A stretch of DNA of 64,000 nt from assembly GCA_964545575.1 (NCBI GenBank), contig CAZJFL010000001.1, forward strand, positions 69,878-133,877. The letters are read 5' to 3'. Made by a program: the position numbers and the translations under genes. Position 1 is the stretch's first letter. Each line of letters begins with the position of its first letter. This DNA comes from an uncultured Planctomycetales bacterium. Its GTDB lineage: Bacteria; Omnitrophota; Gorgyraeia; Gygaellales; Profunditerraquicolaceae. Shown piece after piece: positions 48,553-64,000 of the stretch. The notes under the pieces are model-generated. The model saw nothing but the letters and a program-made list of their open reading frames with translations. It did not search any database and was not told where the DNA came from.

Positions 48553-49830
48553 TTAAGATTCGGGTGTAACCGCCTTTATCTTGGTTTCTTTGCGCTCGGG
48601 GTTCTTCCAGAAGTCCCTGACCGTATAATAAGCTTTTCTAGGCAGCCGCTTATTCAAACCGTCAACTAAATCTGGCGATAAAGCCACGATGCCAAACCAC
48701 TCTTCGTTCATATTCATATTTCCGGGCACCTGAATATCAAAATAATAACTGCCGTTGGACCAGTTGGACTCGGTATCATGCGCCTTCCAGGACTCGGCGT
48801 CATTTTCGTTATGTTTCCACCATTCGTCTGTCCATTCGAACATCACGCCCCCTAAGCAATTACCCGCGCCTGCCTTGCTCTCGGCTAGATTATTATAAAT
48901 CTGCCTCCACTGCGATTCCAGAAAAAAAGCCTGCATATCCTGGTTTTCTTTTTTTAAGTATGCGTCGTATGCATCCGCGCCGAGCTCAGCAATCAGGAGG
49001 GGCTTATTAAAGGTGGCCTTTAAAGAATTGAAAAGGTTGCCGAAGGTTTTGCCGCGGTAGATAATGCAGCTGACTAAATCCACGTCGGGGGCAAACTGAT
49101 TAGCCACGTCCAAAGCAATAAGCTCTCCGCTACCTAAGCCTACCGGATGATCGGGGTCTATTTTATGTATCTGGCGGGCTAATTCATTCACAAAAGAATA
49201 ATAGGTTTTAGCCCGCAGGAACCTTTGCTTGGCAGGGTCGGGCTCTTTATCTATCTCCTCGGATGACCAGGGGTTGACCCGCCCGGAAAAGGAATAATTA
49301 TTTTCGTTGCCTAAAGACCACAATAAAACCCCGGGTTCATCTTTATAGAGATTGACCATTTCTAAAACTTCCTTTTTTATTTTCTCCTGAAAGCATTTAT
49401 CGCCGTAAAGCGGGCAGGGATACTCCCAGAACCCCAGCCAGTGGCCGATAATGGTGCGGATGCCGAACTTTTGGTATAAATCCCTGATCACCAATTTTAC
49501 TTTTTTGGGATTATCGGATACCTGATAAAGCCGGATAGTATTGATTCCCATCTCCTGCATTAGTTTTCCGTCTACAAGCCAGGGCTTATGGGGGTCAGAC
49601 CACCAGTCATAGGCATAATTGCTGCCGATGGGGATAGGATTATAACAGACGCCTTTTACAATATAAGGCTTACCGTCTACGATTAACTGGTAACGGCTGT
49701 TTTGGATTGCCTTGATGTAGACTTTGGGCTGGGGCTTAGGAAAGGCTTCGCCCAAAATAAAACAAGAAAAGATAAGCGTTGCGATAAAAAGCTTCTTGCT
49801 CATTTTAAAGAGGGACAGGTCCCAACCCAA
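48553..49830 (-). CDS. Secreted clan GH-A (TIM-barrel) glycoside hydrolase
   Basis: Signal peptide, acid/base LGNENNY and nucleophile LIAELG motifs. Paralogous to the C-terminal domain of 51157..53442. Confidence 0.6.
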   Translation of the reverse strand: MGWDLSLFKMSKKLFIATLIFSCFILGEAFPKPQPKVYIKAIQNSRYQLIVDGKPYIVKGVCYNPIPIGSNYAYDWWSDPHKPWLVDGKLMQEMGINTIRLYQVSDNPKKVKLVIRDLYQKFGIRTIIGHWLGFWEYPCPLYGDKCFQEKIKKEVLEMVNLYKDEPGVLLWSLGNENNYSFSGRVNPWSSEEIDKEPDPAKQRFLRAKTYYSFVNELARQIHKIDPDHPVGLGSGELIALDVANQFAPDVDLVSCIIYRGKTFGNLFNSLKATFNKPLLIAELGADAYDAYLKKENQDMQAFFLESQWRQIYNNLAESKAGAGNCLGGVMFEWTDEWWKHNENDAESWKAHDTESNWSNGSYYFDIQVPGNMNMNEEWFGIVALSPDLVDGLNKRLPRKAYYTVRDFWKNPERKETKIKAVTPES

Positions 49831-49891: not shown

Positions 49892-51052
49892 TTATTCGAA
49901 CTTAATTTCGTCCAGATAGAAGGTTGCGCCTTCCGGATTCACGTCGATGTTGGTCGCCCAGCAGAAACCGCCGATGATAAAAGACATATCTTTGCCCATC
50001 AGGTCAATGGTATACTGGGTCCAATCCTTATTCAGGATGACCGGGCCGATACCCGCGGTATCGGAATCGGAAAACTCACCCATAATCCCGCCTACCCTAA
50101 ACTCCTCTATCCTTTCGCCGCCTTTTTCTCCCCGCGCCCAAAAGGTGAGCTTGGTGGCTTTGGATAAATCATAACCGGCATCAACCATGCCCCAGTTATT
50201 CGGCGGATTCTGCCATTGTACGCCTGCCCAGCGCGCACCCTGAGAAGCTTTACCGGTGTAAACCATCTTAATACAGGTATCCCCTAAATAAGGGTCTTGT
50301 TTACATGCGCCGTCATATTTTATGTCGCCGTAATCGCCCATCCATCCGGAGGGGATGAAATGATTGCTGACTGAGCTTCTGTCGGCATAAATATAAAAGG
50401 GTACGTTCTCTTTCTTCTTTCCCTCCGGCTTCATATTAGGGTCGGCCTCGTACTTAATGTCATCGATGTAAAAAGTTACTCCGTCAGGATTCAAATCCGC
50501 GGTAGTCGCCCAACCGAACCCGCCGCTGATATAGGATAAATCTTTCCCGGCTAGATTTACGGTGTATTCCTTCCAGGTATCGGTTAATTCTACCGGGCCC
50601 ATCTCGATGGCCGCCGAATCCGGATACGCGCCTTTGATCCCGCCGATGACGAACTTCTGAATCACCTCGCCGCCTTTTTCTCCCCGCGCCCAAAAGGTGA
50701 GCTTTGTCATACCGGAAAGATCAAATCCGCCTTTTTTAGAACCCCAGTTATTCGGCGGGTTCTGCCATTGTACGCCTGCCCAGCCTTCGCCTCTTCCTGT
50801 TTTCTTAGCCGAATAAACAAATTGAATGGAACTGGAACCTGTATGAGGATTACTAAGAGACTGGTCATTTATCTTAATATCTCCGTAATCACCCATCCAT
50901 CCCGAAGGAGCATAGTGATTTTCCCTTGCGCCCTTGTCTTTGTAGACGATGAATTCCTTCGAGCTTTCCGCAACGGGCTTGGCTTCTTCTGCCCCTGCGC
51001 AAACAGGCAGAAATAACATCGCTACTGCCATTACTGCTAATAATTTCTTCAT
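49892..51052 (-). CDS. Secreted protein with two tandem about 180-aa beta-rich (CBM-like) domains
   Basis: The true start is MKKLLAVMAVAMLF (good SD). It has two repeats sharing GWAGVQWQNPPNNWG and SGWMGDYGDIK. Confidence 0.5.
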   Translation of the reverse strand: MKKLLAVMAVAMLFLPVCAGAEEAKPVAESSKEFIVYKDKGARENHYAPSGWMGDYGDIKINDQSLSNPHTGSSSIQFVYSAKKTGRGEGWAGVQWQNPPNNWGSKKGGFDLSGMTKLTFWARGEKGGEVIQKFVIGGIKGAYPDSAAIEMGPVELTDTWKEYTVNLAGKDLSYISGGFGWATTADLNPDGVTFYIDDIKYEADPNMKPEGKKKENVPFYIYADRSSVSNHFIPSGWMGDYGDIKYDGACKQDPYLGDTCIKMVYTGKASQGARWAGVQWQNPPNNWGMVDAGYDLSKATKLTFWARGEKGGERIEEFRVGGIMGEFSDSDTAGIGPVILNKDWTQYTIDLMGKDMSFIIGGFCWATNIDVNPEGATFYLDEIKFE

Positions 51053-51156
51053 CTCTAACACCTCCCCTTTCGTTTGCTTATCACTTATCGCACTATATGC
51101 CATATGCAGATTTCCTATTTTTATTTTGTATTTTTGATGCGCCTCCTTTCCCCTCC

Positions 51157-53442
51157 CTATTGACTCCATAATTTCTTATAGGTGTAATATGATTTACGTA
51201 GCTGCCTTAAATACGGACTCAACTTTCCGTCTCCCTGCCCGGCAATCCCGAGCCACTCCTCATGCATATAACCGTCGGGGAACGGGCCGGTGAATAAACC
51301 TTTGGTGTCGTGCCGGGAAGGCTCATAGGCCTTCCACCACTCATCCAGCCATTCAAAGATCACCCCGCCGATAGAATTGCCTTCGCCGCTGCCAAAGGCA
51401 GTATTGCTTTCTATATCCTCCCAGGCTCCGCTGTGGTAGGCTGCCTGAAGAACTTCCGCCTCATCAGGAGTCTTACCTTGCGCATAGGAGGGGCAGCCAA
51501 ACTCGGTGATGAACACTGGCTTATCCGCCTCCTGTTTTACCTGCCGCCACAAGAAACCGAAACCGTAATCACCGCGGTAAGCATTGGTGCCGAAAATATC
51601 AATGTCGGGCGCATCTTTGCCGAACTTATCCAGAAATAAAGTATCACCGCTACAGATAGCCACGGGGTGACCGGGGTCTATTGCCTTAATCTGCCTAGCC
51701 ACTTCATTGGCAAACTTAAAAAACGCGTCCGGATCGGTATTGGCATTACAGGCAAAACCGTAAACATTTTCATTACCCAGCAGCCAGAAAAGGATATACG
51801 GCTCGTCCTTAAACTCTAAAACCATATTGATCACCGATTCCATCATCTTCTTTTTCTGCTCTTCGTTGGTGTAATCCGTGCCCGGGTACCATTTAGCGCC
51901 GGAGCCGATAGCATATTTGCCCAGGAAATCCCCCATAATCACCCTTATGCCGTAAGTCTTATATAAATCGCGCAGCAACTCTTTGTTTGGCCAGTTATAA
52001 TCGGGGCGATGGTACATCCGTATAGTATTGACACCCATCTCTTTCATTAATGCAAAATCCCCTACTGCCGGCTCATCCGGATCTTGAAGGTTATTTTTAT
52101 TTTTATCTACGAACGAATCATAAGGCGCATCGATTTTGCCGTTTTTATTATCATCCTCAAGCTGCCAATTTTTCATTGTCCCTTCGTCGGGAGATTGGCC
52201 CACTTTCGTCGGGGAATAAGTAATGCCTTTAATAATATAGGGCTTGCCATCCGCTATCAGCTGCCAGTCGCCGGTTTCATACTGCACCAAATGCACTTTC
52301 CCCGTGCCTAAATATTTATTTACGCTTAATTCCGCCGGCGAGGATTTGGATTTCAAGTTTTCCAAGAGGCCGGACTTTTGGAACCTTCCGGGGTTAGTTA
52401 CGGCGGTATCGTTGGAGACGTTATTATCGTAGCCGTTAATAATTTTAATATCCGCATCTACTAATTTATATCCTAAATTAGGGTTGCGGCGCAGGAGAAA
52501 GTTGATCTTGGCGATCGCTGCCTGTCCGATATACCAGGGCGTATGCCAGTAAGTCCAGCTGTAGGCGCCGGGAAAATGCACCACAATAGCATAATAGCAT
52601 TTGATGGCATGTTTAATCAGCCCGGACTTTTCCAGAATCAGGCCGGTATAAAATAATTTTACTCCCTGCGGCTCGGGGGCAATGGCCCATTTTAAAAATG
52701 CCGCCTCCAAATCCGGGGAATGCAGGAAATCCCAAAGGCTCCCCTCCAGCCTTTTCGCCTCTTTGGCTTTTTTGAATTCCGGGTCCCATCTAATGGAGGT
52801 GCTATTAGGATAGACGCCTTCGCCGACTGCCGCGCTTAAACCCTCCTGATCGCTGACTACATAGCGGTAATCCTTGGTGCCGATATTCTTAAACTCGCCG
52901 TATTGCTCGTAATCTACGAAATCTTCTTTACCCGGATCGTAAAGGACTATTCTTGTCGGTAGCTGGCTGATCTTTGCCTTTTTTTCTATCTCAATGGAGC
53001 CGGTCTCTATTTTTTTCACGCTCTGCTTTGCGGTTTCGGCAAGCTGCCAGTACCAGCCGCGCTGGTCCCAGGCCTGGGCGTAATAATATTTTTCGATTAT
53101 CAATTTAAAGATCTTCTTCGCTTCCTCCGGTTTTTCCTGGCGCATATAGCTTTCGGCCTGGATAAAATATGCGGTAGCTACGTTATTTAAGTCCTGGACA
53201 TTCTCGATCGCTTCCTTATTCTTGGGAAGTTCTTTTAAAGAAGCCTGTTCTTTGTCCGCCTCATTCTTGTATAAATCAATGCACGCTTTAGTATATTTAA
53301 AAACCGCCTCAATGTCGCGCCTGCCGTGCGCCTCCCAGGCCTTGACGATCAAATCGCCGGAGGAAGGCTTATCCTGGCATATCGCATATCGCATATCGCA
53401 TATCGCAAAAAATAATGCTAAAATAATCAAGGTGCGTTTCAT
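51157..53442 (-). CDS. Secreted multidomain glycoside hydrolase (N-terminal TPR-like region plus clan GH-A TIM barrel)
   Basis: Signal peptide, LLGNENVYGF (acid/base) and FITEFGC (nucleophile). The N-terminus contains an (ATATCGC)x4 heptamer array. Confidence 0.6.
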   Translation of the reverse strand: MKRTLIILALFFAICDMRYAICQDKPSSGDLIVKAWEAHGRRDIEAVFKYTKACIDLYKNEADKEQASLKELPKNKEAIENVQDLNNVATAYFIQAESYMRQEKPEEAKKIFKLIIEKYYYAQAWDQRGWYWQLAETAKQSVKKIETGSIEIEKKAKISQLPTRIVLYDPGKEDFVDYEQYGEFKNIGTKDYRYVVSDQEGLSAAVGEGVYPNSTSIRWDPEFKKAKEAKRLEGSLWDFLHSPDLEAAFLKWAIAPEPQGVKLFYTGLILEKSGLIKHAIKCYYAIVVHFPGAYSWTYWHTPWYIGQAAIAKINFLLRRNPNLGYKLVDADIKIINGYDNNVSNDTAVTNPGRFQKSGLLENLKSKSSPAELSVNKYLGTGKVHLVQYETGDWQLIADGKPYIIKGITYSPTKVGQSPDEGTMKNWQLEDDNKNGKIDAPYDSFVDKNKNNLQDPDEPAVGDFALMKEMGVNTIRMYHRPDYNWPNKELLRDLYKTYGIRVIMGDFLGKYAIGSGAKWYPGTDYTNEEQKKKMMESVINMVLEFKDEPYILFWLLGNENVYGFACNANTDPDAFFKFANEVARQIKAIDPGHPVAICSGDTLFLDKFGKDAPDIDIFGTNAYRGDYGFGFLWRQVKQEADKPVFITEFGCPSYAQGKTPDEAEVLQAAYHSGAWEDIESNTAFGSGEGNSIGGVIFEWLDEWWKAYEPSRHDTKGLFTGPFPDGYMHEEWLGIAGQGDGKLSPYLRQLRKSYYTYKKLWSQ
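53378..53406. repeat. Heptanucleotide tandem repeat (GCATATC)x4 in the signal-peptide codons of the GH gene
   Basis: gcatatcgcatatcgcatatcgcatatcgca, encoding AICDMRYAI. Confidence 0.85.
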
Positions 53443-53789
53443 TTTAAACCCTTCTTAAATGCCCTTATTTTCCTTATGATTTTCTCTGCCTCTTCATACA
53501 ATTCTTTTTGTTTTAACTCGGTAATATATTTCCTTAACAGGGCAAAATATAGAATATTTACTGTTTCTAAAGCCGACTTTATGCTTGTATCAAGGAAACA
53601 GCTAAAATCTCTAGTAGTACTTGCTCCTGAACCCTCAGCAATATTATTCGAAATAGAAACTGCTGCTCTTCTTAATTGAGAACATAATCCATACATTTCT
53701 TTTTGTGGAAAAGAATCGGCTATCTCGTATAATTTACTTGCGTATTCCAAAGACAATTTCCAAATCTCTAAACTTTCAAATCTAAACAT
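53439..53789 (-). CDS. Four-helix-bundle protein (23S rRNA intervening-sequence protein / Avd-like family)
   Basis: 116 aa with FESLEIWKLSLEYASKLYEIADSFPQKEMYGLCSQLRRAAVSISNNIAEGSG, the TIGR02436-type signature. Confidence 0.8.
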   Translation of the reverse strand: MFRFESLEIWKLSLEYASKLYEIADSFPQKEMYGLCSQLRRAAVSISNNIAEGSGASTTRDFSCFLDTSIKSALETVNILYFALLRKYITELKQKELYEEAEKIIRKIRAFKKGLK

Positions 53790-58593: not shown

Positions 58594-59289
58594 TTATCTT
58601 AAAGCCCTTGACAAGCCCAATAAATCCGCCCTTTCCAGATTAATTCCGCTGCGGTATTCATTGGCGCCTTGGGGCTTTGACCAGACTACCTCCCCCCGGG
58701 TGTAAAGCGGCTCATCCCTATCCGCTACTTTAAGCCATATCTCCAGACGAGCATTGGCTTTCAGTTCAGAGCTGCTCACTAAACCGATGCCCTTGGCGCT
58801 GATATCGGAAGTCTCTGCTTCTCCTTCGCGGCCGGTCTGCGCGTCCAGATACTTTACGGATAGCTTCGCCGTCATCCTCTGGAAAATCCTCCTGTCTTCC
58901 ATGGTTTCACCTCCTTCCTTTTCATCCATACCGTTCCACCACTGCCGGTGCATTTCTTTAGGGTAATGGTGGCGCATAAAGCGGTATATCTTCTCTTTAT
59001 CCTGATCGGATATCCTGGTAAAGTAAATGCCATAAATGTTATGGCCGTCTACTGGTTTGTGCCAGCCGATCCAGGCCTCCACGTGGATGATAAACGACTC
59101 GGATAAAATAATGCTTAACTTGAAAAAGGTATCCGCTGCCAGCCGCTGTGCCAGAGAAATCCTGGCGCCTTTAAAGTTTAAGTCATGGAGGGTACAGGGT
59201 ATCGCTGCTAAGGCTCCCTCCAGCTTTATTTGCGCGCGGTTATCAATTTTCCAACGGGGACATTTTCTTTTCTCGTCCATCGGTTTCAC
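58594..59289 (-). CDS. Tandem PilZ-domain protein
   Basis: Two RxxxR...D/NxSxxG-like PilZ signatures (RKCPRWKIDNRAQ...NFKGARIS and RRIFQRMTAKLS...DISAKGIGL). Confidence 0.6.
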   Translation of the reverse strand: MKPMDEKRKCPRWKIDNRAQIKLEGALAAIPCTLHDLNFKGARISLAQRLAADTFFKLSIILSESFIIHVEAWIGWHKPVDGHNIYGIYFTRISDQDKEKIYRFMRHHYPKEMHRQWWNGMDEKEGGETMEDRRIFQRMTAKLSVKYLDAQTGREGEAETSDISAKGIGLVSSSELKANARLEIWLKVADRDEPLYTRGEVVWSKPQGANEYRSGINLERADLLGLSRALR

Positions 59290-59340
59290 CTTGGCCCTTT
59301 CTTTTGATTTTAGAAACCGTTTTTATAATCTATCCGTCAT

Positions 59341-62300
59341 TTATCTGCCATATGTAAATCCCGCAATCTCTATTAATATTTGGCGCAAAATCCCTTCCCA
59401 AGGAATTAATGCAGCTACTCTAAATGGATTTTTTCCTTTATGCAAAGCGTCTTCTAGATTCCGTATAAAATTTTCCCTTTTTTGCGAATCGTCGATTCTT
59501 TCCCTTGCCACGCCTTTTATAATCCTTAAATACCGCTTCTTTTTCTGGGAGTTATAAGTTAGCCAATCGCTGATGATTCTTAATCCTATGCCCCATAGTT
59601 CCTCCCGGTATTTATGAATACTATCCGGATTTTCTCTTATCTCGGCAATAATTTTTTCTAATTTCTTATGTTGTAATTTTATAATGACCCCCGAAGCCAA
59701 TGCCCGCAGCTCATGATTAGTATGCCCTAAATAATAACTATTGAGTATATGGGAAAGGTAAGAAATATCGTCTACCTCATCAACGATTCCCGCTAAAATA
59801 TCGATTATTACCATATCTTTCTTAAATTTTTCAAAATCTACCGGCCGCAGAAAGCTTTCTAACTTACTGATAATATTTTTATCCGCCTTTCTTTGTACTA
59901 ACACCTTCTTTGCTTCCTGCCAAAGCGCCTCATTAGATCTGCTAAATGCCTCTTCCACATAGCGCAGATAATCTCCCGCTGTAAACAATAATCCTACTGT
60001 ATCACTTTCGATCTGATAAAAGAGGGGATGTAGCTGACATAATTTCTTATGCATTCTTCTTAAAGCAAGGCTGATCAGGGGTATCGTCTTATCTTGCTGC
60101 TGAGTTGTGAAAGAAGATATCTGCTTCATCATCTCTTCAATAATTCTTATCGCCTCTGTAATATTGGTTGTGATCACGGATATATTTCTGCCTTGGCCTA
60201 GATATATCTGGGGCCCTGCCTGTTTTCTTATCTCTTTAATCTTCTCTGATAATCTCTTTATTGCGATGAGGAATTCGTTCCTTTCCTCTTCATCCAACAT
60301 ATTTACTTTCTTTAACATGTTCCTTATTGAAGACTCTAAAATAATCTGTAATTTTCTTCTTGCCGAATTGCATTCGGTAATTATTTTTTTACCTAAGTCA
60401 GAGCTTTTTAAAGGCTGCTCAGCGGCAGCAAGCTCTAATAATTCAAGAAAACAATTTATCATTTCCGAAGTATGGAATAGCCTTAATGGGTGTTTTGCTA
60501 TTCTTGCCTTTAGCATGCGCGCCACAAAAACCCCTATTCTTCTTTCTTCATAATGTAATAAACCTAAACTTTTTCCGTAACCCCTTAAGCGCAGAAAACT
60601 GCCTACATAGTCAGCTAATTCTACCCGTTCCATCCCCCGTAAGATCTCTAATCCTTTCTGTGCCAGTCCAGCCATTCGGTCTGCGATAATGCCCAATTCT
60701 TCTTTAAGTCTTACCAGTGCCCGTGTTTTATGTTTTCTCTGATAACTCTTCAAAAGGGCTCTTAGGGAATGGCCGCCGAAGAACTCTATTTTTTCATCAA
60801 AATCCAGTATGGTTAAGGCGAAAGAATTTTTGCCTAACGCCTCAGTCAAGCATTCCAAAAACTTTTTCTTTACTGCCGCAGGTACTTCTGCCCATGATCT
60901 CATTTCGTCTCTTCGTACCCGCCCCAGCCAGAAGTTAAAATTATCCTCGGAAAATTTAAAGCCCAATTGCTTTTTTAACCGACTCAGGCCGTCGTTTTGG
61001 GTATCGTGTCTTTTTTGATAAGTCTCTAAAAGACGGATCAATGTTTTCCCGAGGCGGGGGATTTTTATCTTAAAATCTTTTAAAATTAGATCTTCCGGTT
61101 TCTTACCTACCTCTTCGGCTAACAGTTCCACGCAGAATATCTTTACGATGTCGGGAATCCTATCCCAAACAGTTCTTTCAGTCCTTATGTAGTATGCCCA
61201 AGCATCGAGATCCATTTCTTGGGTGAAGGTTTCGGGAAAAACTGAATGTAATAATGCCGGAAAAGAATAATCGAACAGCCGCCAAATCCCCAAAAGCCCT
61301 TCTTTCTCCAGCATCGCTCTGTTTACCTCCCTTAAAAGCGATTCTCTGTTTGTAATATCTAAATGCAGATGCTCAACGGCAACGTGCAATAACGCGGTCT
61401 TTGCTAATTCTTTATCCCAGCCTATGACGCGCGGCCCAAAATAACTAATGAACTCCCAAATATGCAGGTGCCCGCCTTCATCGGTTTTTAAATTAAATAG
61501 CCAGTAGTAATGTTCTTTCAGCATTTTATACAGCCCGCCCTTAAACGATAAAAGCATGCCGCTTAAATTCTGCTGCTGGAATAATTCCTCCCAGCCGCCT
61601 TTTTCTATGCCTTCTCTTTTAAATAGCTCTTGGAATTTTTGCGGATGCAGTAAGTCGCTAAAAGTATTCTTGGCCGGATCGTCAGGGTCGATGTTAATCA
61701 ATTTCAGATGCTTTTCAAAGAAATGCCTGACCGCCTTTTCTATCATCTGTTCATCCTGCCATATCCCTTTCTGCAAAATAAAATCCCAAGGATGCAGGTG
61801 CCCGCCCTCCGCTGTTTCCAAATCAAACGCCCATGGATAACAGGCGCGAAACGCTCCATAGAAACTCCCCCTGAATAAATTTCCCAACACGTCTCTGCCG
61901 ATTTCTTTTCTCAGAAGCTTTGACCAATCGCTGCTCTTAAGCTGTCCGGAAAACCGCTTCTGCGCCTCCCCTGTCATAAATTGGGAATTTCTGCCTTTTG
62001 CTAATTTAACTATATATTCGGGAAATAAGCGTAGGCCTATCTGTCTTAATCTTGCATCCATTTTTAAACCAAGGTGTCTTTCAAAGATATGCCTGAGATT
62101 TTTGATGGTTTTTTCTTCTTTTTCCTCGCTTTCTTTCAGGCGCACAAAATCTAAATAATGCAGGTGGAAGCCTTCCTTGGTGCTATAATCGAATGCCCAC
62201 GGATAGACCATTTCTACTGCCTCGGCGAAACTAAGGCGGTTTACCTTACCGTCGCTACGCCGCTCTCTGAATGCTAGCTTAAATTTAGCTAAAAGCTCAT

Positions 62301-64000
62301 CCAGATGCGCCACACCGGACCTGCGGCAAAGTAAATAGTGGTTTTGGTAAAAAAGGCGCCTATCTATCTTTTCACCCTGCTTCATCTCCAATTTCAGTTT
62401 TTCTTCAAAGAAATATTTTAACAATATAAGCCGATTTATCTTTCCTGCTTTGCCTACCAAGGTATTCATGGGAAACTTGGGGTTTTTGCTACGCAGCATT
62501 GTTTCATAATACTGACGAAGGGCAGGCCCGGCACATCTTATATACTCATCTGTCAATTTCTGTCTTTCTGCATCAGATTTACAAATACTCAATAAATATT
62601 CCAGCTCGGGGATTACTTCAAATAGATTACGGCCTCTGCCGCGCCAATGGACTATCTGCTTTTCCTTTTCTCTATCGATATATCGACGGTAAAATGGGCG
62701 GTACTCTGCCCCTACAAAAGTTTCCTTTATTTTTCTCTTTCCGAAAAACCTCATCACTAAATAAAATTCTATTTCATAAATATAAAAATAAACCCCGGCA
62801 GCGGTCAATAACCTGTCCCGGAAACCTTCATTTTTTAGGTAGCCAGCGATCTCCTTAGCCTGATATTTTCTGCTTAAAGCAACATCGAGAAACGGATCAA
62901 TGCCGTAATAAAGCCTGAACGCTATCATTTTTACAAATAACTCCGCATATTCTGTGGGGTTATCTTTCTTCATCTCTAACAACTCTTCCAATGCATCTAA
63001 AACCGATGCGGCATCTATGGAAAGCTCTTGCTTATTCCTTATCTGGAGGGACCCGATAAAATCTTCCCGTATCTTTTTTCGGCTGTTGCTTACCACTGAA
63101 TCCGTAACCAGCAGAAAACCAGCTAAAGCCAACTCACTTCCCGGGGGCCGCGGATGATGAAAGACAAATAATACTAAACTGAAGATAACCCAAACCGCCA
63201 GAATTACGATTAATAATCCAATCTGGGTGAAGCCTTTTGGCCCTTTCTTTAACTGTAATTTTGCGATTATCTCTAAAGCTAATTTCCTGATATCGGCATT
63301 CATATGCCCGATATAATATCTATTTAAGACATCTTTTAGTTTGGCGATATCTTGGGCATCGCTGCAAATCTCTGTCAGAATTTCAATAATCGCCATATCT
63401 TTAACGACGTATCTTTCTTCAAAAAACCCGGGGTCAAGTATGTGCATTAAACGCAGGATTAACTTCCTGTCCCCTTTTCTTAGCTTCAGTTCATTTTTAG
63501 CTGCTTCTATCAGTTTAATATTTCCCTGGCGTATAATCGAAAAGGGATCAAGACCGGCAAAACCCAATTTTACCTTAAGGTTATTTAACGCCTGCTTTAA
63601 ATTTTCATTCTTACCACGGTAACGCTGCAAAAGTCCAATCAAGCTCTGGTTTAAAGATAGTATCTGAGTTTTAAAATCCTCCGGATTTAAGCCCTCGGGT
63701 TTTTTCTTTAACTGCGTAGTTAACAATTCCACGCACCGGCGCTGCACAGAAAGAGGCACCTTGCTCCAGACAATATGCCGGCACCTCTTTAACTGCGGAA
63801 ACCAAACCGCCCAGTCCGCCTGGGAAAATAATTCATCGAATACGAAATTTAATAAAGCCGACGCAGAACAATCAAAGATTTCCCAGAGCTTAAAGACGCC
63901 TTCCTCTTTTAAGACCTCCCGGGTCATCCCTTCGGATAACGATTCTACGCTAAGCTCTAATTTCCGGTGTTTAAGCGCAATGTGCTTTACCGCCTCTTTT
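59341..64000 (-). CDS. Giant uncharacterised protein, more than 1550 aa and N-terminally truncated by the window end, with internal duplications
   Basis: The open frame continues without a stop to position 64000. It has one predicted TM helix and three roughly 110-aa repeats sharing YPWxFDxxTxEGGHLHxW(D/E)F. The N- and C-terminal regions are also homologous to each other. No family recognised. Confidence 0.6.
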   Translation of the reverse strand, partial: KEAVKHIALKHRKLELSVESLSEGMTREVLKEEGVFKLWEIFDCSASALLNFVFDELFSQADWAVWFPQLKRCRHIVWSKVPLSVQRRCVELLTTQLKKKPEGLNPEDFKTQILSLNQSLIGLLQRYRGKNENLKQALNNLKVKLGFAGLDPFSIIRQGNIKLIEAAKNELKLRKGDRKLILRLMHILDPGFFEERYVVKDMAIIEILTEICSDAQDIAKLKDVLNRYYIGHMNADIRKLALEIIAKLQLKKGPKGFTQIGLLIVILAVWVIFSLVLFVFHHPRPPGSELALAGFLLVTDSVVSNSRKKIREDFIGSLQIRNKQELSIDAASVLDALEELLEMKKDNPTEYAELFVKMIAFRLYYGIDPFLDVALSRKYQAKEIAGYLKNEGFRDRLLTAAGVYFYIYEIEFYLVMRFFGKRKIKETFVGAEYRPFYRRYIDREKEKQIVHWRGRGRNLFEVIPELEYLLSICKSDAERQKLTDEYIRCAGPALRQYYETMLRSKNPKFPMNTLVGKAGKINRLILLKYFFEEKLKLEMKQGEKIDRRLFYQNHYLLCRRSGVAHLDELLAKFKLAFRERRSDGKVNRLSFAEAVEMVYPWAFDYSTKEGFHLHYLDFVRLKESEEKEEKTIKNLRHIFERHLGLKMDARLRQIGLRLFPEYIVKLAKGRNSQFMTGEAQKRFSGQLKSSDWSKLLRKEIGRDVLGNLFRGSFYGAFRACYPWAFDLETAEGGHLHPWDFILQKGIWQDEQMIEKAVRHFFEKHLKLINIDPDDPAKNTFSDLLHPQKFQELFKREGIEKGGWEELFQQQNLSGMLLSFKGGLYKMLKEHYYWLFNLKTDEGGHLHIWEFISYFGPRVIGWDKELAKTALLHVAVEHLHLDITNRESLLREVNRAMLEKEGLLGIWRLFDYSFPALLHSVFPETFTQEMDLDAWAYYIRTERTVWDRIPDIVKIFCVELLAEEVGKKPEDLILKDFKIKIPRLGKTLIRLLETYQKRHDTQNDGLSRLKKQLGFKFSEDNFNFWLGRVRRDEMRSWAEVPAAVKKKFLECLTEALGKNSFALTILDFDEKIEFFGGHSLRALLKSYQRKHKTRALVRLKEELGIIADRMAGLAQKGLEILRGMERVELADYVGSFLRLRGYGKSLGLLHYEERRIGVFVARMLKARIAKHPLRLFHTSEMINCFLELLELAAAEQPLKSSDLGKKIITECNSARRKLQIILESSIRNMLKKVNMLDEEERNEFLIAIKRLSEKIKEIRKQAGPQIYLGQGRNISVITTNITEAIRIIEEMMKQISSFTTQQQDKTIPLISLALRRMHKKLCQLHPLFYQIESDTVGLLFTAGDYLRYVEEAFSRSNEALWQEAKKVLVQRKADKNIISKLESFLRPVDFEKFKKDMVIIDILAGIVDEVDDISYLSHILNSYYLGHTNHELRALASGVIIKLQHKKLEKIIAEIRENPDSIHKYREELWGIGLRIISDWLTYNSQKKKRYLRIIKGVARERIDDSQKRENFIRNLEDALHKGKNPFRVAALIPWEGILRQILIEIAGFTYGR

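What the first reader, a model, noticed from the sequence alone, without database searches (positions are those of the whole stretch)
59341..64000. Giant protein (more than 1550 aa) with two-fold internal duplication and a triplicated YPWxFD-x4-EGGHLH-xW(D/E)F module, next to a tandem-PilZ protein
The frame is open from 64000 to 59341. The first about 350 aa (…FKLWEIFDCSASALLNFVFDELF…KPEGLNPEDFKTQILSL…) are homologous to residues about 790-1000 (…GIWRLFDYSFPALLHSVFPETF…KPEDLILKDFKIKIPRL…). The segment around MHILDPGFFEERYVVKDMAIIEIL…YYIGHMNADIRKLALEIIAKLQ recurs near the C-terminus (…FEKFKKDMVIIDIL…YYLGHTNHELRALASGVIIKLQ). Three consecutive roughly 110-aa units share an invariant aromatic/His block (YPWAFDYSTKEGFHLHYLDF; YPWAFDLETAEGGHLHPWDF; YYWLFNLKTDEGGHLHIWEF). 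This block could bind a metal or be catalytic. One TM helix anchors the protein. I do not recognise the family. The downstream neighbour has two PilZ (c-di-GMP receptor) signatures, suggesting c-di-GMP-controlled function. This is the best candidate in the window for an undescribed system.
Basis: seen in the sequence. Interest (0 to 1): 0.6.

Follow-up and report, generated by a model that had tools for sequence, protein, structure and literature searches.

The report
Omnitrophota giant-gene tail with uncharted repeats
This is the last part of one of the very long genes typical of Omnitrophota bacteria, in their already-described "giant gene, then pilZ, then sugar-uptake genes" arrangement; what is new is that this tail is built from two repeated protein modules that match no known family or solved fold.

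Summary
The minus-strand frame is open from 59341 to the window edge. The internal duplications and the three His-motif blocks are highly significant, and the neighbour is a tandem-PilZ protein.

The interpretation needs correcting in three ways.
1. The ORF is only the 3' end of a longer gene. A near-identical contig gives at least 2,391 aa with nine His-motif units, and an Omnitrophota orthologue gives at least 3,834 aa.
2. The order giant gene, pilZ, sugar transporter, glycoside hydrolases is already published as typical of Omnitrophota giant genes (West-Roberts 2023). Relatives of the repeats outside Omnitrophota have no PilZ neighbour.
3. The "two-fold duplication" comes from a 3,946-bp add-on cassette bounded by a 14-nt direct repeat. 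This cassette is missing from a co-occurring short allele and from the orthologue.

The function is inferred only. My best guess is a binding or scaffold region on the cytoplasmic face.

The parts
59341..64000 (-). 3' end of a giant gene. There are 1,552 codons plus the stop at 59341-59343, and the frame is open to the window edge.
   Evidence: Translation has no stop. Contig L001, from the same strain, extends it to at least 2,391 aa and is still cut at its 5' end. The orthologue in an Omnitrophota single-cell genome (L005) is at least 3,834 aa and open at the locus edge.
63883..63999 (-). Tail (the '...AVKHIALKHRKLEL' helix) of His-motif unit 6. The rest of the unit lies beyond the window edge.
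   Evidence: aa 1-20 align with the tail of unit 9. The full unit is seen in L001 aa 758-878.
63559..63816 (-). A repeat, copy 1 (aa 62-147). This is a basic five-helix module of about 85 aa.
   Evidence: HMM built from 81 units. It matches copies 2 and 3.
63244..63528 (-). B module, copy 1 (aa 158-252; ...DMAIIEIL...YYIGHMNADIRKLALEIIAKLQ). It is the C-terminus of the protein in the short allele and in the orthologue.
   Evidence: 42% identical to copy 2. L002 and L005 end here. No Pfam or HEAT hit.
63237..63250 (-). Upstream copy of the 14-nt direct repeat AAAGAAAGGGCCAA. It marks the left boundary of the long-allele-specific segment.
   Evidence: The 14-mer occurs exactly twice in the window, with 0 expected by chance. 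The junction was mapped in L002 and L004.
59305..63236 (-). Sequence between the two repeat copies. Together with one repeat copy (3,946 bp) it is the add-on that is present in the window, L001 and L003 but absent from L002, L004 and the L005 orthologue. It encodes aa 255-1552 plus the 3' spacer.
63148..63240 (-). The only strongly hydrophobic segment (aa 254-284, FTQIGLLIVILAVWVIFSLVLFVF).
   Evidence: Kyte-Doolittle scan, mean 3.26 over 19 aa.
62344..62637 (-). N-cap of cassette 3 (aa 455-552; ...NPKFPMNTLVGKAGKINRLILLKYFFEEKLKLEMKQGEKIDRRLF). It is equivalent to the 'FPxGFWxGxxG...LGLxMD...IDxRL' start of the standalone proteins.
   Evidence: P0003 aa 66-668 align with query aa 477-1098. 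This region in homologues gives weak DUF4046 hits.
61969..62346 (-). His-motif unit 7 (aa 552-677; YPWAFDYSTKEGFHLHYLDF), triad position 1.
   Evidence: HMM domain table and alignment.
61594..61977 (-). His-motif unit 8 (aa 675-802; YPWAFDLETAEGGHLHPWDF), triad position 2. This is the unit that was modelled.
61282..61605 (-). His-motif unit 9 (aa 799-906; YYWLFNLKTDEGGHLHIWEF), triad position 3.
60958..61212 (-). A repeat, copy 2 (aa 930-1014). This is the copy that was modelled.
60688..60942 (-). A repeat, copy 3 (aa 1020-1104).
59638..59940 (-). B module, copy 2 (aa 1354-1454; ...DMVIIDIL...YYLGHTNHELRALASGVIIKLQ).
59291..59304 (-). Downstream copy of the 14-nt direct repeat. It overlaps the Shine-Dalgarno region of the PilZ gene.
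58594..59289 (-). Tandem-PilZ protein (231 aa from the GTG start; 228 aa from the ATG that other assemblies call). It is the first gene of the downstream sugar-uptake cluster.
   Evidence: PF07238 twice, E 3e-23. There is no terminator-like site between the giant gene's stop and its start. The L005 orthologue also has PilZ in this position.

Best explanation
**What it is (shown).** The ORF is the C-terminal part of an Omnitrophota giant gene. It sits in the locus type already described for that phylum: giant gene, then pilZ, then a binding-protein-dependent sugar transporter, then glycoside hydrolases.

**How it is built (shown).** The visible region is a chain of cassettes of about 650-750 aa. 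Each cassette has these parts in order:
- an N-cap;
- three non-identical all-alpha units of about 115 aa, each carrying YPWAFDLxTPEGxHLHPWDF and, about 20 residues later, RHxxExHLGL;
- one or two basic five-helix 'A' repeats of about 85 aa;
- a helical 'B' module.

The same cassette exists on its own as a 480-950-aa protein in Margulisiibacteriota and in unclassified metagenome bacteria.

**The last cassette (shown).** In this strain the last cassette, together with a hydrophobic segment, is a 3.9-kb add-on bounded by a 14-nt direct repeat. It is polymorphic in the population.

**How it works (inferred).**
- The region lies on the cytoplasmic side. In the long allele it is tethered to the membrane.
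- It acts as a multivalent binding or scaffold region rather than as an enzyme array.
- Each His-motif unit holds a metal ion or small ligand through its four conserved histidines.
- The basic A repeats dock nucleic acid or transcription-type partner proteins.
- PilZ belongs to the locus (giant gene plus sugar uptake), not to this repeat family.
For: **Identity and locus**
- The window's MnmG is 73-78% identical to proteins named Candidatus Omnitrophica/Omnitrophota.
- Orthologue L005, from an Omnitrophota single-cell genome, is 59% identical and colinear over 1,092 aligned positions. It is followed by the same genes: PilZ, SBP, MFS, two permeases.
- Downstream Pfam content in L001 is PilZ, SBP_bac_1, MFS, two BPD_transp_1 and Glyco_hydro_2_C.
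- This matches the published description (10.1101/2023.11.21.568195).

**Cassette structure**
- L001 has nine units whose three sub-types recur in the same order.
- P0001-P0003 align over query aa 477-1121, which covers a whole cassette.
- 18 of the 52 homologues carry 2-4 units each.

**Novel domains**
- No match in Pfam, NCBIfam, PADLOC or PHROGs, nor in PDB sequence profiles.
- The models are confident but have no structural neighbour.

**Cytoplasmic side**
- 12 standalone His-motif proteins have no N-terminal hydrophobic segment.
- The 3,823 aa of L005 have no hydrophobic segment.
- A-repeat proteins also carry Sigma70 r2/r3/r4, GerE, HTH_11, HTH_IclR, SF1 helicase and DnaJ domains.
- A units are basic (mean pI 9.0, net charge +4.6).

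**Binding rather than catalysis**
- Units always occur as ordered tandem triads.
- Some units have lost one or both histidines of the HxH pair (L001 unit 1, P0032, P0033, P0039).

**PilZ is not a partner of the family**
- No PilZ in L006, L009/L010, L011/L012 or L015.
Against: - No direct evidence exists for any ligand, metal or partner.
- I could not inspect the model coordinates, so I do not know whether the four histidines are close together in space.
- The topology rests on a simple hydropathy scan. West-Roberts et al. predict most annotated domains of giant proteins to be extracellular, though they call those predictions unreliable.
- The full N-terminal part of the gene is unknown. It may carry signal peptides, many TM helices or enzymes that change the picture.
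- The domains that co-occur with A repeats were each seen in only 1-2 of 31 proteins.
- PilZ could still act on the giant protein as a whole.
Confidence: 0.6

Rival explanations
1. The His-motif unit is a catalytic, metal-dependent domain, for example a phosphodiesterase or hydrolase, perhaps acting on c-di-GMP or on sugar phosphates. The giant protein would then carry arrays of active sites.
For: Four histidines and acidic residues (D52, E57, D65) are conserved across units from proteins that are only about 25-38% identical. Conservation of polar residues like this is unusual for purely structural repeats. A c-di-GMP receptor gene lies next door. Omnitrophota giant proteins are often multi-enzyme chains.
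Confidence: 0.15
2. The cassettes are extracellular or surface-exposed modules for adhesion or prey binding, as proposed for Archaeovorin-type giant proteins. The hydrophobic segment would act as a membrane anchor, with the C-terminal cassette outside the cell.
For: The published model for these loci is prey attachment and cell-wall digestion, with most domains predicted to be extracellular. The long allele has a single strong hydrophobic segment directly before the last cassette. The downstream genes import and degrade sugars.
Against: The same module types lie on both sides of the single hydrophobic segment, so a one-pass topology would put identical modules in different compartments. Standalone homologues have no signal peptide. 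The orthologue has no hydrophobic segment in its 3,823 aa. A repeats co-occur with sigma-factor, HTH, DnaJ and helicase domains, which are cytoplasmic.
Confidence: 0.15
3. The giant protein and the tandem-PilZ protein form a dedicated, undescribed c-di-GMP-controlled system in which PilZ regulates the His-motif modules.
For: The genes are adjacent on the same strand with no terminator between them. In the short allele the giant gene's TGA overlaps the PilZ GTG, which suggests translational coupling. The pairing is conserved in the Omnitrophota orthologue and in most Omnitrophota giant-gene loci.
Against: The pairing is already described, and it holds for giant genes of very different domain content, so it is not tied to these modules. 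Four independent neighbourhoods of His-motif proteins outside Omnitrophota have no PilZ. PilZ is just as well placed to regulate the sugar-uptake operon that it heads.
Confidence: 0.15
4. The long ORF is an assembly artefact or a decaying pseudogene made of repeats.
For: Metagenome contigs break in or next to this gene, and two alleles that differ by 3.9 kb exist.
Against: The frame is open for at least 7.2 kb in independent assemblies from different samples. It is conserved at 59% amino-acid identity with an orthologue from a single-cell genome. The repeats are only 25-56% identical at protein level, too divergent to make an assembler collapse them. The allele junction is a clean 14-nt repeat seen in two assemblies.
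Confidence: 0.03

Closest known systems
Omnitrophota giant-gene loci (West-Roberts et al. 2023, bioRxiv 10.1101/2023.11.21.568195; catalogue in Nielsen & Lui 2026, bioRxiv 10.64898/2026.06.07.730766)
   Same: Same phylum. A very long ORF is immediately followed by a pilZ homologue, then solute-binding protein, permeases and glycoside hydrolases. The protein has a repeat-rich architecture with no Pfam match; 137 of 916 long Omnitrophota proteins have no Pfam hit.
   Different: The total length is unknown here (at least 2,391 aa; orthologue at least 3,834 aa). The visible part has none of the SecA_DEAD, glycosyltransferase, HEAT/TPR or dockerin domains used to define the Archaeovorin and dockerin types, and only one hydrophobic segment. 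The two repeat families found here are not described in either paper.
Standalone His-motif cassette proteins, all annotated 'hypothetical protein' (for example MFA5034566.1 from a Candidatus Margulisiibacteriota MAG; P0001-P0003, P0007-P0012)
   Same: Same order of N-cap, 3-4 His-motif units and, in P0001-P0003, two A repeats. They are 32-38% identical to the window's last cassette (E down to 5e-91).
   Different: They are single 480-950-aa proteins with no PilZ neighbour and no shared gene neighbourhood. Some (P0007-P0012) have a different C-terminal domain in place of the A repeats.
Pfam DUF4046 (PF13255)
   Same: The first 40 positions of the profile align with the 'FPxGFWxGxxGxxN' N-cap of several standalone homologues. 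The best is P0011, E 1e-3, 20.1 bits.
   Different: All hits fall below the gathering score of 22.8. The window protein itself gives no hit. DUF4046 has no known function, and no paper in the library mentions it.
Small helix-turn-helix / winged-helix DNA-binding domains (NtrC DNA-binding domain, TetR N-terminal domain, sigma-28 region 4, SANT-SLIDE)
YcgR-like and other PilZ-domain c-di-GMP receptors (the neighbour gene only)
   Same: Two PilZ domains (PF07238), with the RxxxR-type N-terminal motif region present in each half.
   Different: There is no PilZN (YcgR N-terminal) domain or other effector domain. Its target is unknown.

Membership tests
Omnitrophota giant-gene locus (West-Roberts 2023) | Encoded in an Omnitrophota genome | tested here: met
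   MnmG from the window is 73-78% identical to proteins named Candidatus Omnitrophica/Omnitrophota. A syntenic orthologue is found in an Omnitrophota single-cell genome.
Omnitrophota giant-gene locus (West-Roberts 2023) | pilZ homologue immediately downstream of the long gene | tested here: met
   PF07238 twice, E 3e-23, starting 51 nt after the stop.
Omnitrophota giant-gene locus (West-Roberts 2023) | Solute-binding protein, binding-protein-dependent permeases and glycosyl hydrolases further downstream | tested here: met
   SBP_bac_1, two BPD_transp_1 and Glyco_hydro_2_C in the same order (ORFs).
Omnitrophota giant-gene locus (West-Roberts 2023) | Gene longer than 90 kb (protein over 30,000 aa) | not testable with these tools
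   The ORF runs off the window. L001 gives at least 2,391 aa. The orthologue is at least 3,834 aa and open at the locus edge. No longer contig could be retrieved.
Omnitrophota giant-gene locus (West-Roberts 2023) | Numerous TM helices and a divergent SecA_DEAD domain | tested here: inconclusive
   The visible part has one hydrophobic segment and no Pfam hit. These features could lie upstream.
Archaeovorin-type giant protein | Glycosyltransferase, methyltransferase, glycosyl hydrolase, peptidase and NUDIX domains, and HEAT repeats | tested here: inconclusive
   None detected in the window ORF or in the 3,823 aa of L005. The only hit is a sub-threshold Glyco_hydro_130 match, 20.1 bits against a cutoff of 26. 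The upstream part was not seen.
   No HEAT or TPR hit at E<=10 on the whole protein or on any piece. The B module looks HEAT-like only by eye.
Pfam DUF4046 (PF13255) | Score at or above the gathering threshold of 22.8 bits | tested here: not met
   The best relative scores 20.1 bits (P0011). The window protein gives no hit.
Known metal-dependent all-alpha hydrolases (HD, HEPN and similar) | Fold similarity to a solved member | tested here: not met
PilZ domain (neighbour gene) | Match to PF07238 above the gathering score | tested here: met
   82.5 bits against a cutoff of 22.5, in two stretches.

The most novel reading that the evidence does not exclude
The His-motif unit (HxH…Hx4H, about 115 aa, all-alpha, no PDB neighbour) could be a new metal- or ligand-binding fold that works in ordered triads as a sensor or catalytic module. 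In Omnitrophota, copies of this module would have been strung onto a membrane-tethered giant protein, and the co-transcribed (in the short allele possibly translationally coupled) tandem-PilZ protein would couple its output to c-di-GMP. The 3.9-kb add-on would then be a natural example of a giant gene growing, or shrinking, by one whole cassette at a 14-nt microhomology.
Probability: 0.12. Interest if true: 0.75.

Novelty: new variant of a known kind. Interest (0 to 1): 0.45.

Why it matters
Omnitrophota giant proteins are a recognised knowledge gap, and roughly one in seven of the long ones has no recognisable domain. This locus offers something tractable.
- It defines two compact, confidently modelled repeat domains, with boundaries, consensus sequences and conserved residues.
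- The same cassette exists as small standalone proteins in Margulisiibacteriota. Those could be expressed and tested directly, which is not feasible for the giant protein itself.
- Long and short alleles co-exist in otherwise identical backgrounds. They differ by exactly one cassette between 14-nt repeats, which gives a concrete view of how such genes gain or lose modules.

It does not reveal a new c-di-GMP system: the link between giant genes and pilZ is already in the literature.

Tried and rejected
- **The search for homologous proteins (word-indexed):** the full ORF and a 45-unit alignment both returned nothing, although relatives exist. Only the exhaustive HMMER scan found them.
- **First genome contigs attempt:** A 7-row alignment worked.
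- **afdb50 fold library:** not available, so there was no comparison with predicted structures.
- **Phage, plasmid and viral-contig searches:** no relatives.
- **HEPN idea (Rx5H in 'RHxxExH'):** rejected, because the Arg is not conserved and there is no fold match.
- **HD or hemerythrin-type metal sites:** no fold support.
- **Common origin of the His-motif unit and the A repeat:** hhalign probability 0.2%.
- **Recovering the N-terminus:** look-ups through PilZ and the SBP gave only contigs that break in or beside the gene.
- **The 231-aa GTG-start PilZ:** not on record. The 228-aa ATG form is.
- **Nickel-related genes near P0003 in L009 (NikR, CbiM, LarA, CDF):** an appealing link to a His-rich motif, but they lie on the other strand, are separated by unrelated genes, and are absent from the other neighbourhoods. 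I treat this as coincidence.

Full report
**1. Checking the observation**

Read from 63999 downwards, the minus strand is open for 1,552 codons and stops at 59341-59343. The ATG at 63927 that the ORF listing reports is not the start, because homology to the internal repeats begins at the very first codon of the window.

- aa 1-147 match 867-1014 (39% identity, E 4e-26).
- aa 158-260 match 1354-1454 (42%, E 2e-16).
- aa 58-146 match 1016-1103 (32%, E 3e-8).
- The three His-motif stretches match each other at 47% (E 1.5e-14), 40% (E 1.5e-10) and 33% (E 1.5e-4).

The downstream gene (58594-59289) carries two PilZ domains (PF07238, 82.5 bits). One strongly hydrophobic segment lies at aa 254-284.

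**2. The gene is longer than the window**

An exact look-up of the PilZ product (228-aa form) returned four metagenome contigs. L001 differs from the window at 10 of 14,630 positions and extends the ORF to 2,391 aa, still cut at its 5' end. That stretch contains nine His-motif units, arranged as three triads. The three unit sub-types recur in the same order within each triad.

A scan of one genome per species found a syntenic orthologue in a Candidatus Omnitrophota single-cell genome (L005, JBHPGR010000015).
- L001 aa 1-1091 align colinearly with orthologue aa 2789-3823 at 59% identity.
- The orthologue's frame is open to the edge of the fetched locus, so it is at least 3,834 aa.
- It is followed by PilZ, SBP, MFS and two permeases, the same order as in the window.

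The window's MnmG is 73-78% identical to proteins named Candidatus Omnitrophica/Omnitrophota. The organism is therefore an Omnitrophota bacterium.

**3. The locus type is already described**

West-Roberts et al. [quoted passage not shown] The window has exactly that order:
- PilZ;
- SBP_bac_1;
- MFS_2;
- two BPD_transp_1 permeases;
- a small 23S_rRNA_IVP protein;
- a Glyco_hydro_2_C protein;
- a duplicated protein with no Pfam hit;
- a further 425-aa protein (48553-49830) that I did not scan against Pfam.

The "giant protein next to PilZ" pairing is therefore a known feature of the phylum, not a new system.

It is also not a property of the repeat family. The His-motif relatives in two Margulisiibacteriota-type and two unclassified neighbourhoods (L006; L009/L010; L011/L012; L015) have no PilZ neighbour and no neighbour in common.

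**4. What the visible region is made of**

No part of the ORF matches any of the following:
- Pfam, whole protein or in six pieces at E<=10;
- NCBIfam, PADLOC or PHROGs;
- PDB sequences.

The word-indexed protein search found nothing. An exhaustive HMMER scan of 1.84 billion cluster representatives found 52 proteins at E<=1e-3, ten of them at E<=1e-30. These resolve into two unrelated repeat families (hhalign probability 0.2%).

*(a) The His-motif unit.*
- It is about 115 aa long. Its consensus is ...W..LF....L.G....S......YPWAFDL.TPEG.HLH.WDF.....W......A.RH..E.HLGL.MD....ID.RL.
- One His is invariant. W18, F51, G58, H60, H62, F66 and H90 are at least 90% conserved across 45 units.
- It occurs in 18 of the 52 proteins, always as 2-4 tandem copies.
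- An AlphaFold2 model of unit 8, built on a 39-unit alignment, is confident (pLDDT 86.5, pTM 0.70) and all-alpha.

*(b) The A repeat.*
- It is about 85 aa long. Its consensus is W..VP.......ve.lA.elGK.Pg.L...DF......fgGK.L.GLL..Y.........AL..LK..LGI.
- There are 154 units in 39 proteins, in arrays of up to 18.
- The model is very confident (pLDDT 93.8, pTM 0.84; five helices).
- The units are basic (mean pI 9.0, net charge +4.6), whereas the His-motif units are neutral.
- Proteins with A repeats also carry Sigma70 r2/r3/r4, GerE, HTH_11, HTH_IclR, SF1-helicase, DnaJ and STAND-NTPase domains.

*(c) The B module* (...DMAIIEIL...YY[IL]GH.N...R.LA...I.KLQ) looks HEAT-like by eye but gives no profile hit.

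The order N-cap, three or four His-motif units, two A repeats and a helical tail is exactly the architecture of the complete 776-945-aa proteins P0001-P0003. They align with query aa 477-1121 at 35-36% identity. P0002's cluster includes MFA5034566.1, a hypothetical protein from a Candidatus Margulisiibacteriota MAG. The tail of the giant protein is therefore a concatenation of a cassette that exists elsewhere as an independent protein.

The N-cap of several standalone members gives sub-threshold hits to Pfam DUF4046 (best 20.1 bits against a gathering score of 22.8). No paper in the library mentions that family.

The family is rare. There are four loci among 185,579 species genomes and six among 241 million metagenome records. 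None was found in phage, plasmid or viral collections. The clusters hold 1-6 members each, and all but one of the named members are called hypothetical; P0005 is named a FliA sigma factor.

**5. The "two-fold duplication" is an add-on cassette, and it is polymorphic**

Contigs L002 and L004 come from two other samples. In them the giant ORF ends right after the first B module (...IIAKLQLKKGPR*), and PilZ follows 6 nt later. In these short alleles the giant gene's TGA overlaps the GTG of PilZ.

The junction is a 14-nt direct repeat, AAAGAAAGGGCCAA. It occurs exactly twice in the window, at 63237-63250 and 59291-59304, with none expected by chance. The 3,946 bp between the two copies are missing from the short allele. 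Those bases encode the hydrophobic segment, cassette 3 and B module 2.

The flanks of L002 are 100% identical to the window, so both alleles exist in essentially the same strain. The L005 orthologue ends at the same place as the short allele.

The add-on is 38-47% identical to the upstream cassettes, so it is not a recent tandem duplication. I cannot decide the direction of the event:
- The short form could be ancestral and the add-on acquired later. The orthologue's end and the overlapping stop and start codons favour this.
- The add-on could have been deleted recently by microhomology. The identical flanks are compatible with either direction.

**6. How it most likely works**

*Shown:* the identity of the locus, the cassette architecture, the absence of any known family or fold, and the allele structure.

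*Inferred:*
- **Cytoplasmic location.** Standalone homologues have no N-terminal hydrophobic segment. The orthologue has no hydrophobic segment in its 3,823 aa. A repeats co-occur with sigma-factor, HTH, DnaJ and helicase domains. Identical module types flank the single hydrophobic segment of the long allele. "TM-only, cytoplasmic-domain" is also the commonest predicted architecture of long Omnitrophota proteins (10.64898/2026.06.07.730766).
- **Binding rather than catalysis.** The units come in ordered triads, and some have lost one or both histidines of the HxH pair.
- **Metal or small-ligand binding** by the HxH…Hx4H histidines.
- **Nucleic-acid or transcription-factor docking** by the basic A repeats.

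I put about 0.8 on the identity and architecture part and about 0.3 on the mechanism.

The rival explanations are a catalytic metal-dependent domain (0.15), surface-exposed prey-binding modules (0.15), a dedicated PilZ-controlled pair (0.15) and an artefact or pseudogene (0.03).

**7. Novelty and verdict**

The locus is a member of a known kind (Omnitrophota giant gene plus pilZ plus sugar uptake). The two repeat domains and the cassette are undescribed, and they are shared with small proteins in Margulisiibacteriota. This makes it a new variant rather than a new kind of system.

Interest is moderate (0.45). The finding is useful for opening up the unannotated part of giant proteins and for seeing module gain or loss in action, but it has no demonstrated function and no new regulatory principle.

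Noticed in passing
window 59291-59304 and 63237-63250 (minus strand); L002 2965-2978; L004 128-141: A 14-nt direct repeat, AAAGAAAGGGCCAA, bounds a 3,946-bp segment. The segment is present in the window, L001 and L003, and absent from L002 and L004, whose flanks are 100% identical to the window. Long and short alleles of the giant gene therefore co-exist in one population.
   Followed up: yes
L002 2978-2991 (short allele); compare window 59280-59343: In the short allele the giant gene's stop codon overlaps the PilZ GTG start (…CCA AGG TGA AAC CGA TGG…), a layout typical of translational coupling. In the long allele the gap is 51 nt, with no terminator-like site.
   Followed up: partly
L005 1-11506: The orthologue's upstream 2,788 aa have no significant Pfam hit, only a sub-threshold Glyco_hydro_130 match. 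By eye they contain Fic-like (HPADGHHR), GNAT-like (RGKGIGY) and ATP-grasp-like stretches and long charged, proline-rich linkers. The frame is still open at the locus edge.
   Followed up: partly
P0001 aa 910-929; P0003 aa 756-775: Standalone cassette proteins end in a short hydrophobic tail (…IADCLIMLGLISGAIIKVGE). This could be a tail anchor, which would parallel the membrane tether of the long allele.
   Followed up: no
P0005, P0006, P0024, P0028 N-termini (aa 1-70): Several large A-repeat proteins share an N-terminal hydrophobic segment followed by a conserved stretch (…LAPPSRFKPLISIEKR… / …SKFNPIVRIEKRNGEF…, then …F.YL..LI.Q). This looks like a common membrane-anchor head for long proteins of this type.
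   Followed up: no
window 49892-51169 (minus strand): A 425-aa protein lies downstream of the Glyco_hydro_2_C gene (51157-53442). It has a clear internal two-fold duplication (GWMGDYGDIK…WAGVQWQNPPNNWG…LTFWARGEKGGE, twice) and no Pfam hit on record. It may be an undescribed carbohydrate-binding module pair.
   Followed up: no
window 53439-53789 (minus strand): A 116-aa four-helix-bundle protein of the '23S rRNA intervening sequence protein' family (PF05635) is embedded in the sugar-uptake operon, between the permease and the glycoside hydrolase. It is conserved there in L001, L019 and L020.
   Followed up: no
L001-L004, L019, L020: Every metagenome contig that carries the downstream operon ends inside or right next to the giant gene. 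This fits assembly breakage caused by the allele polymorphism or by repeats.
   Followed up: partly
L009 / L010 1-7633: The standalone homologue P0003 lies near a nickel/cobalt gene set (NikR, CbiM, PDGLE, a CDF exporter, LarA) and a Fic gene, on the opposite strand. This is suggestive for a His-rich motif, but it is not seen in the other neighbourhoods.
   Followed up: partly
P0004 (many sites) and P0026 aa 129-150: Recurrent 'ASSP(V/L)GALV…' peptide stretches interrupt otherwise unrelated regions of two homologues. They may be translated copies of a short repeated DNA element.
   Followed up: no
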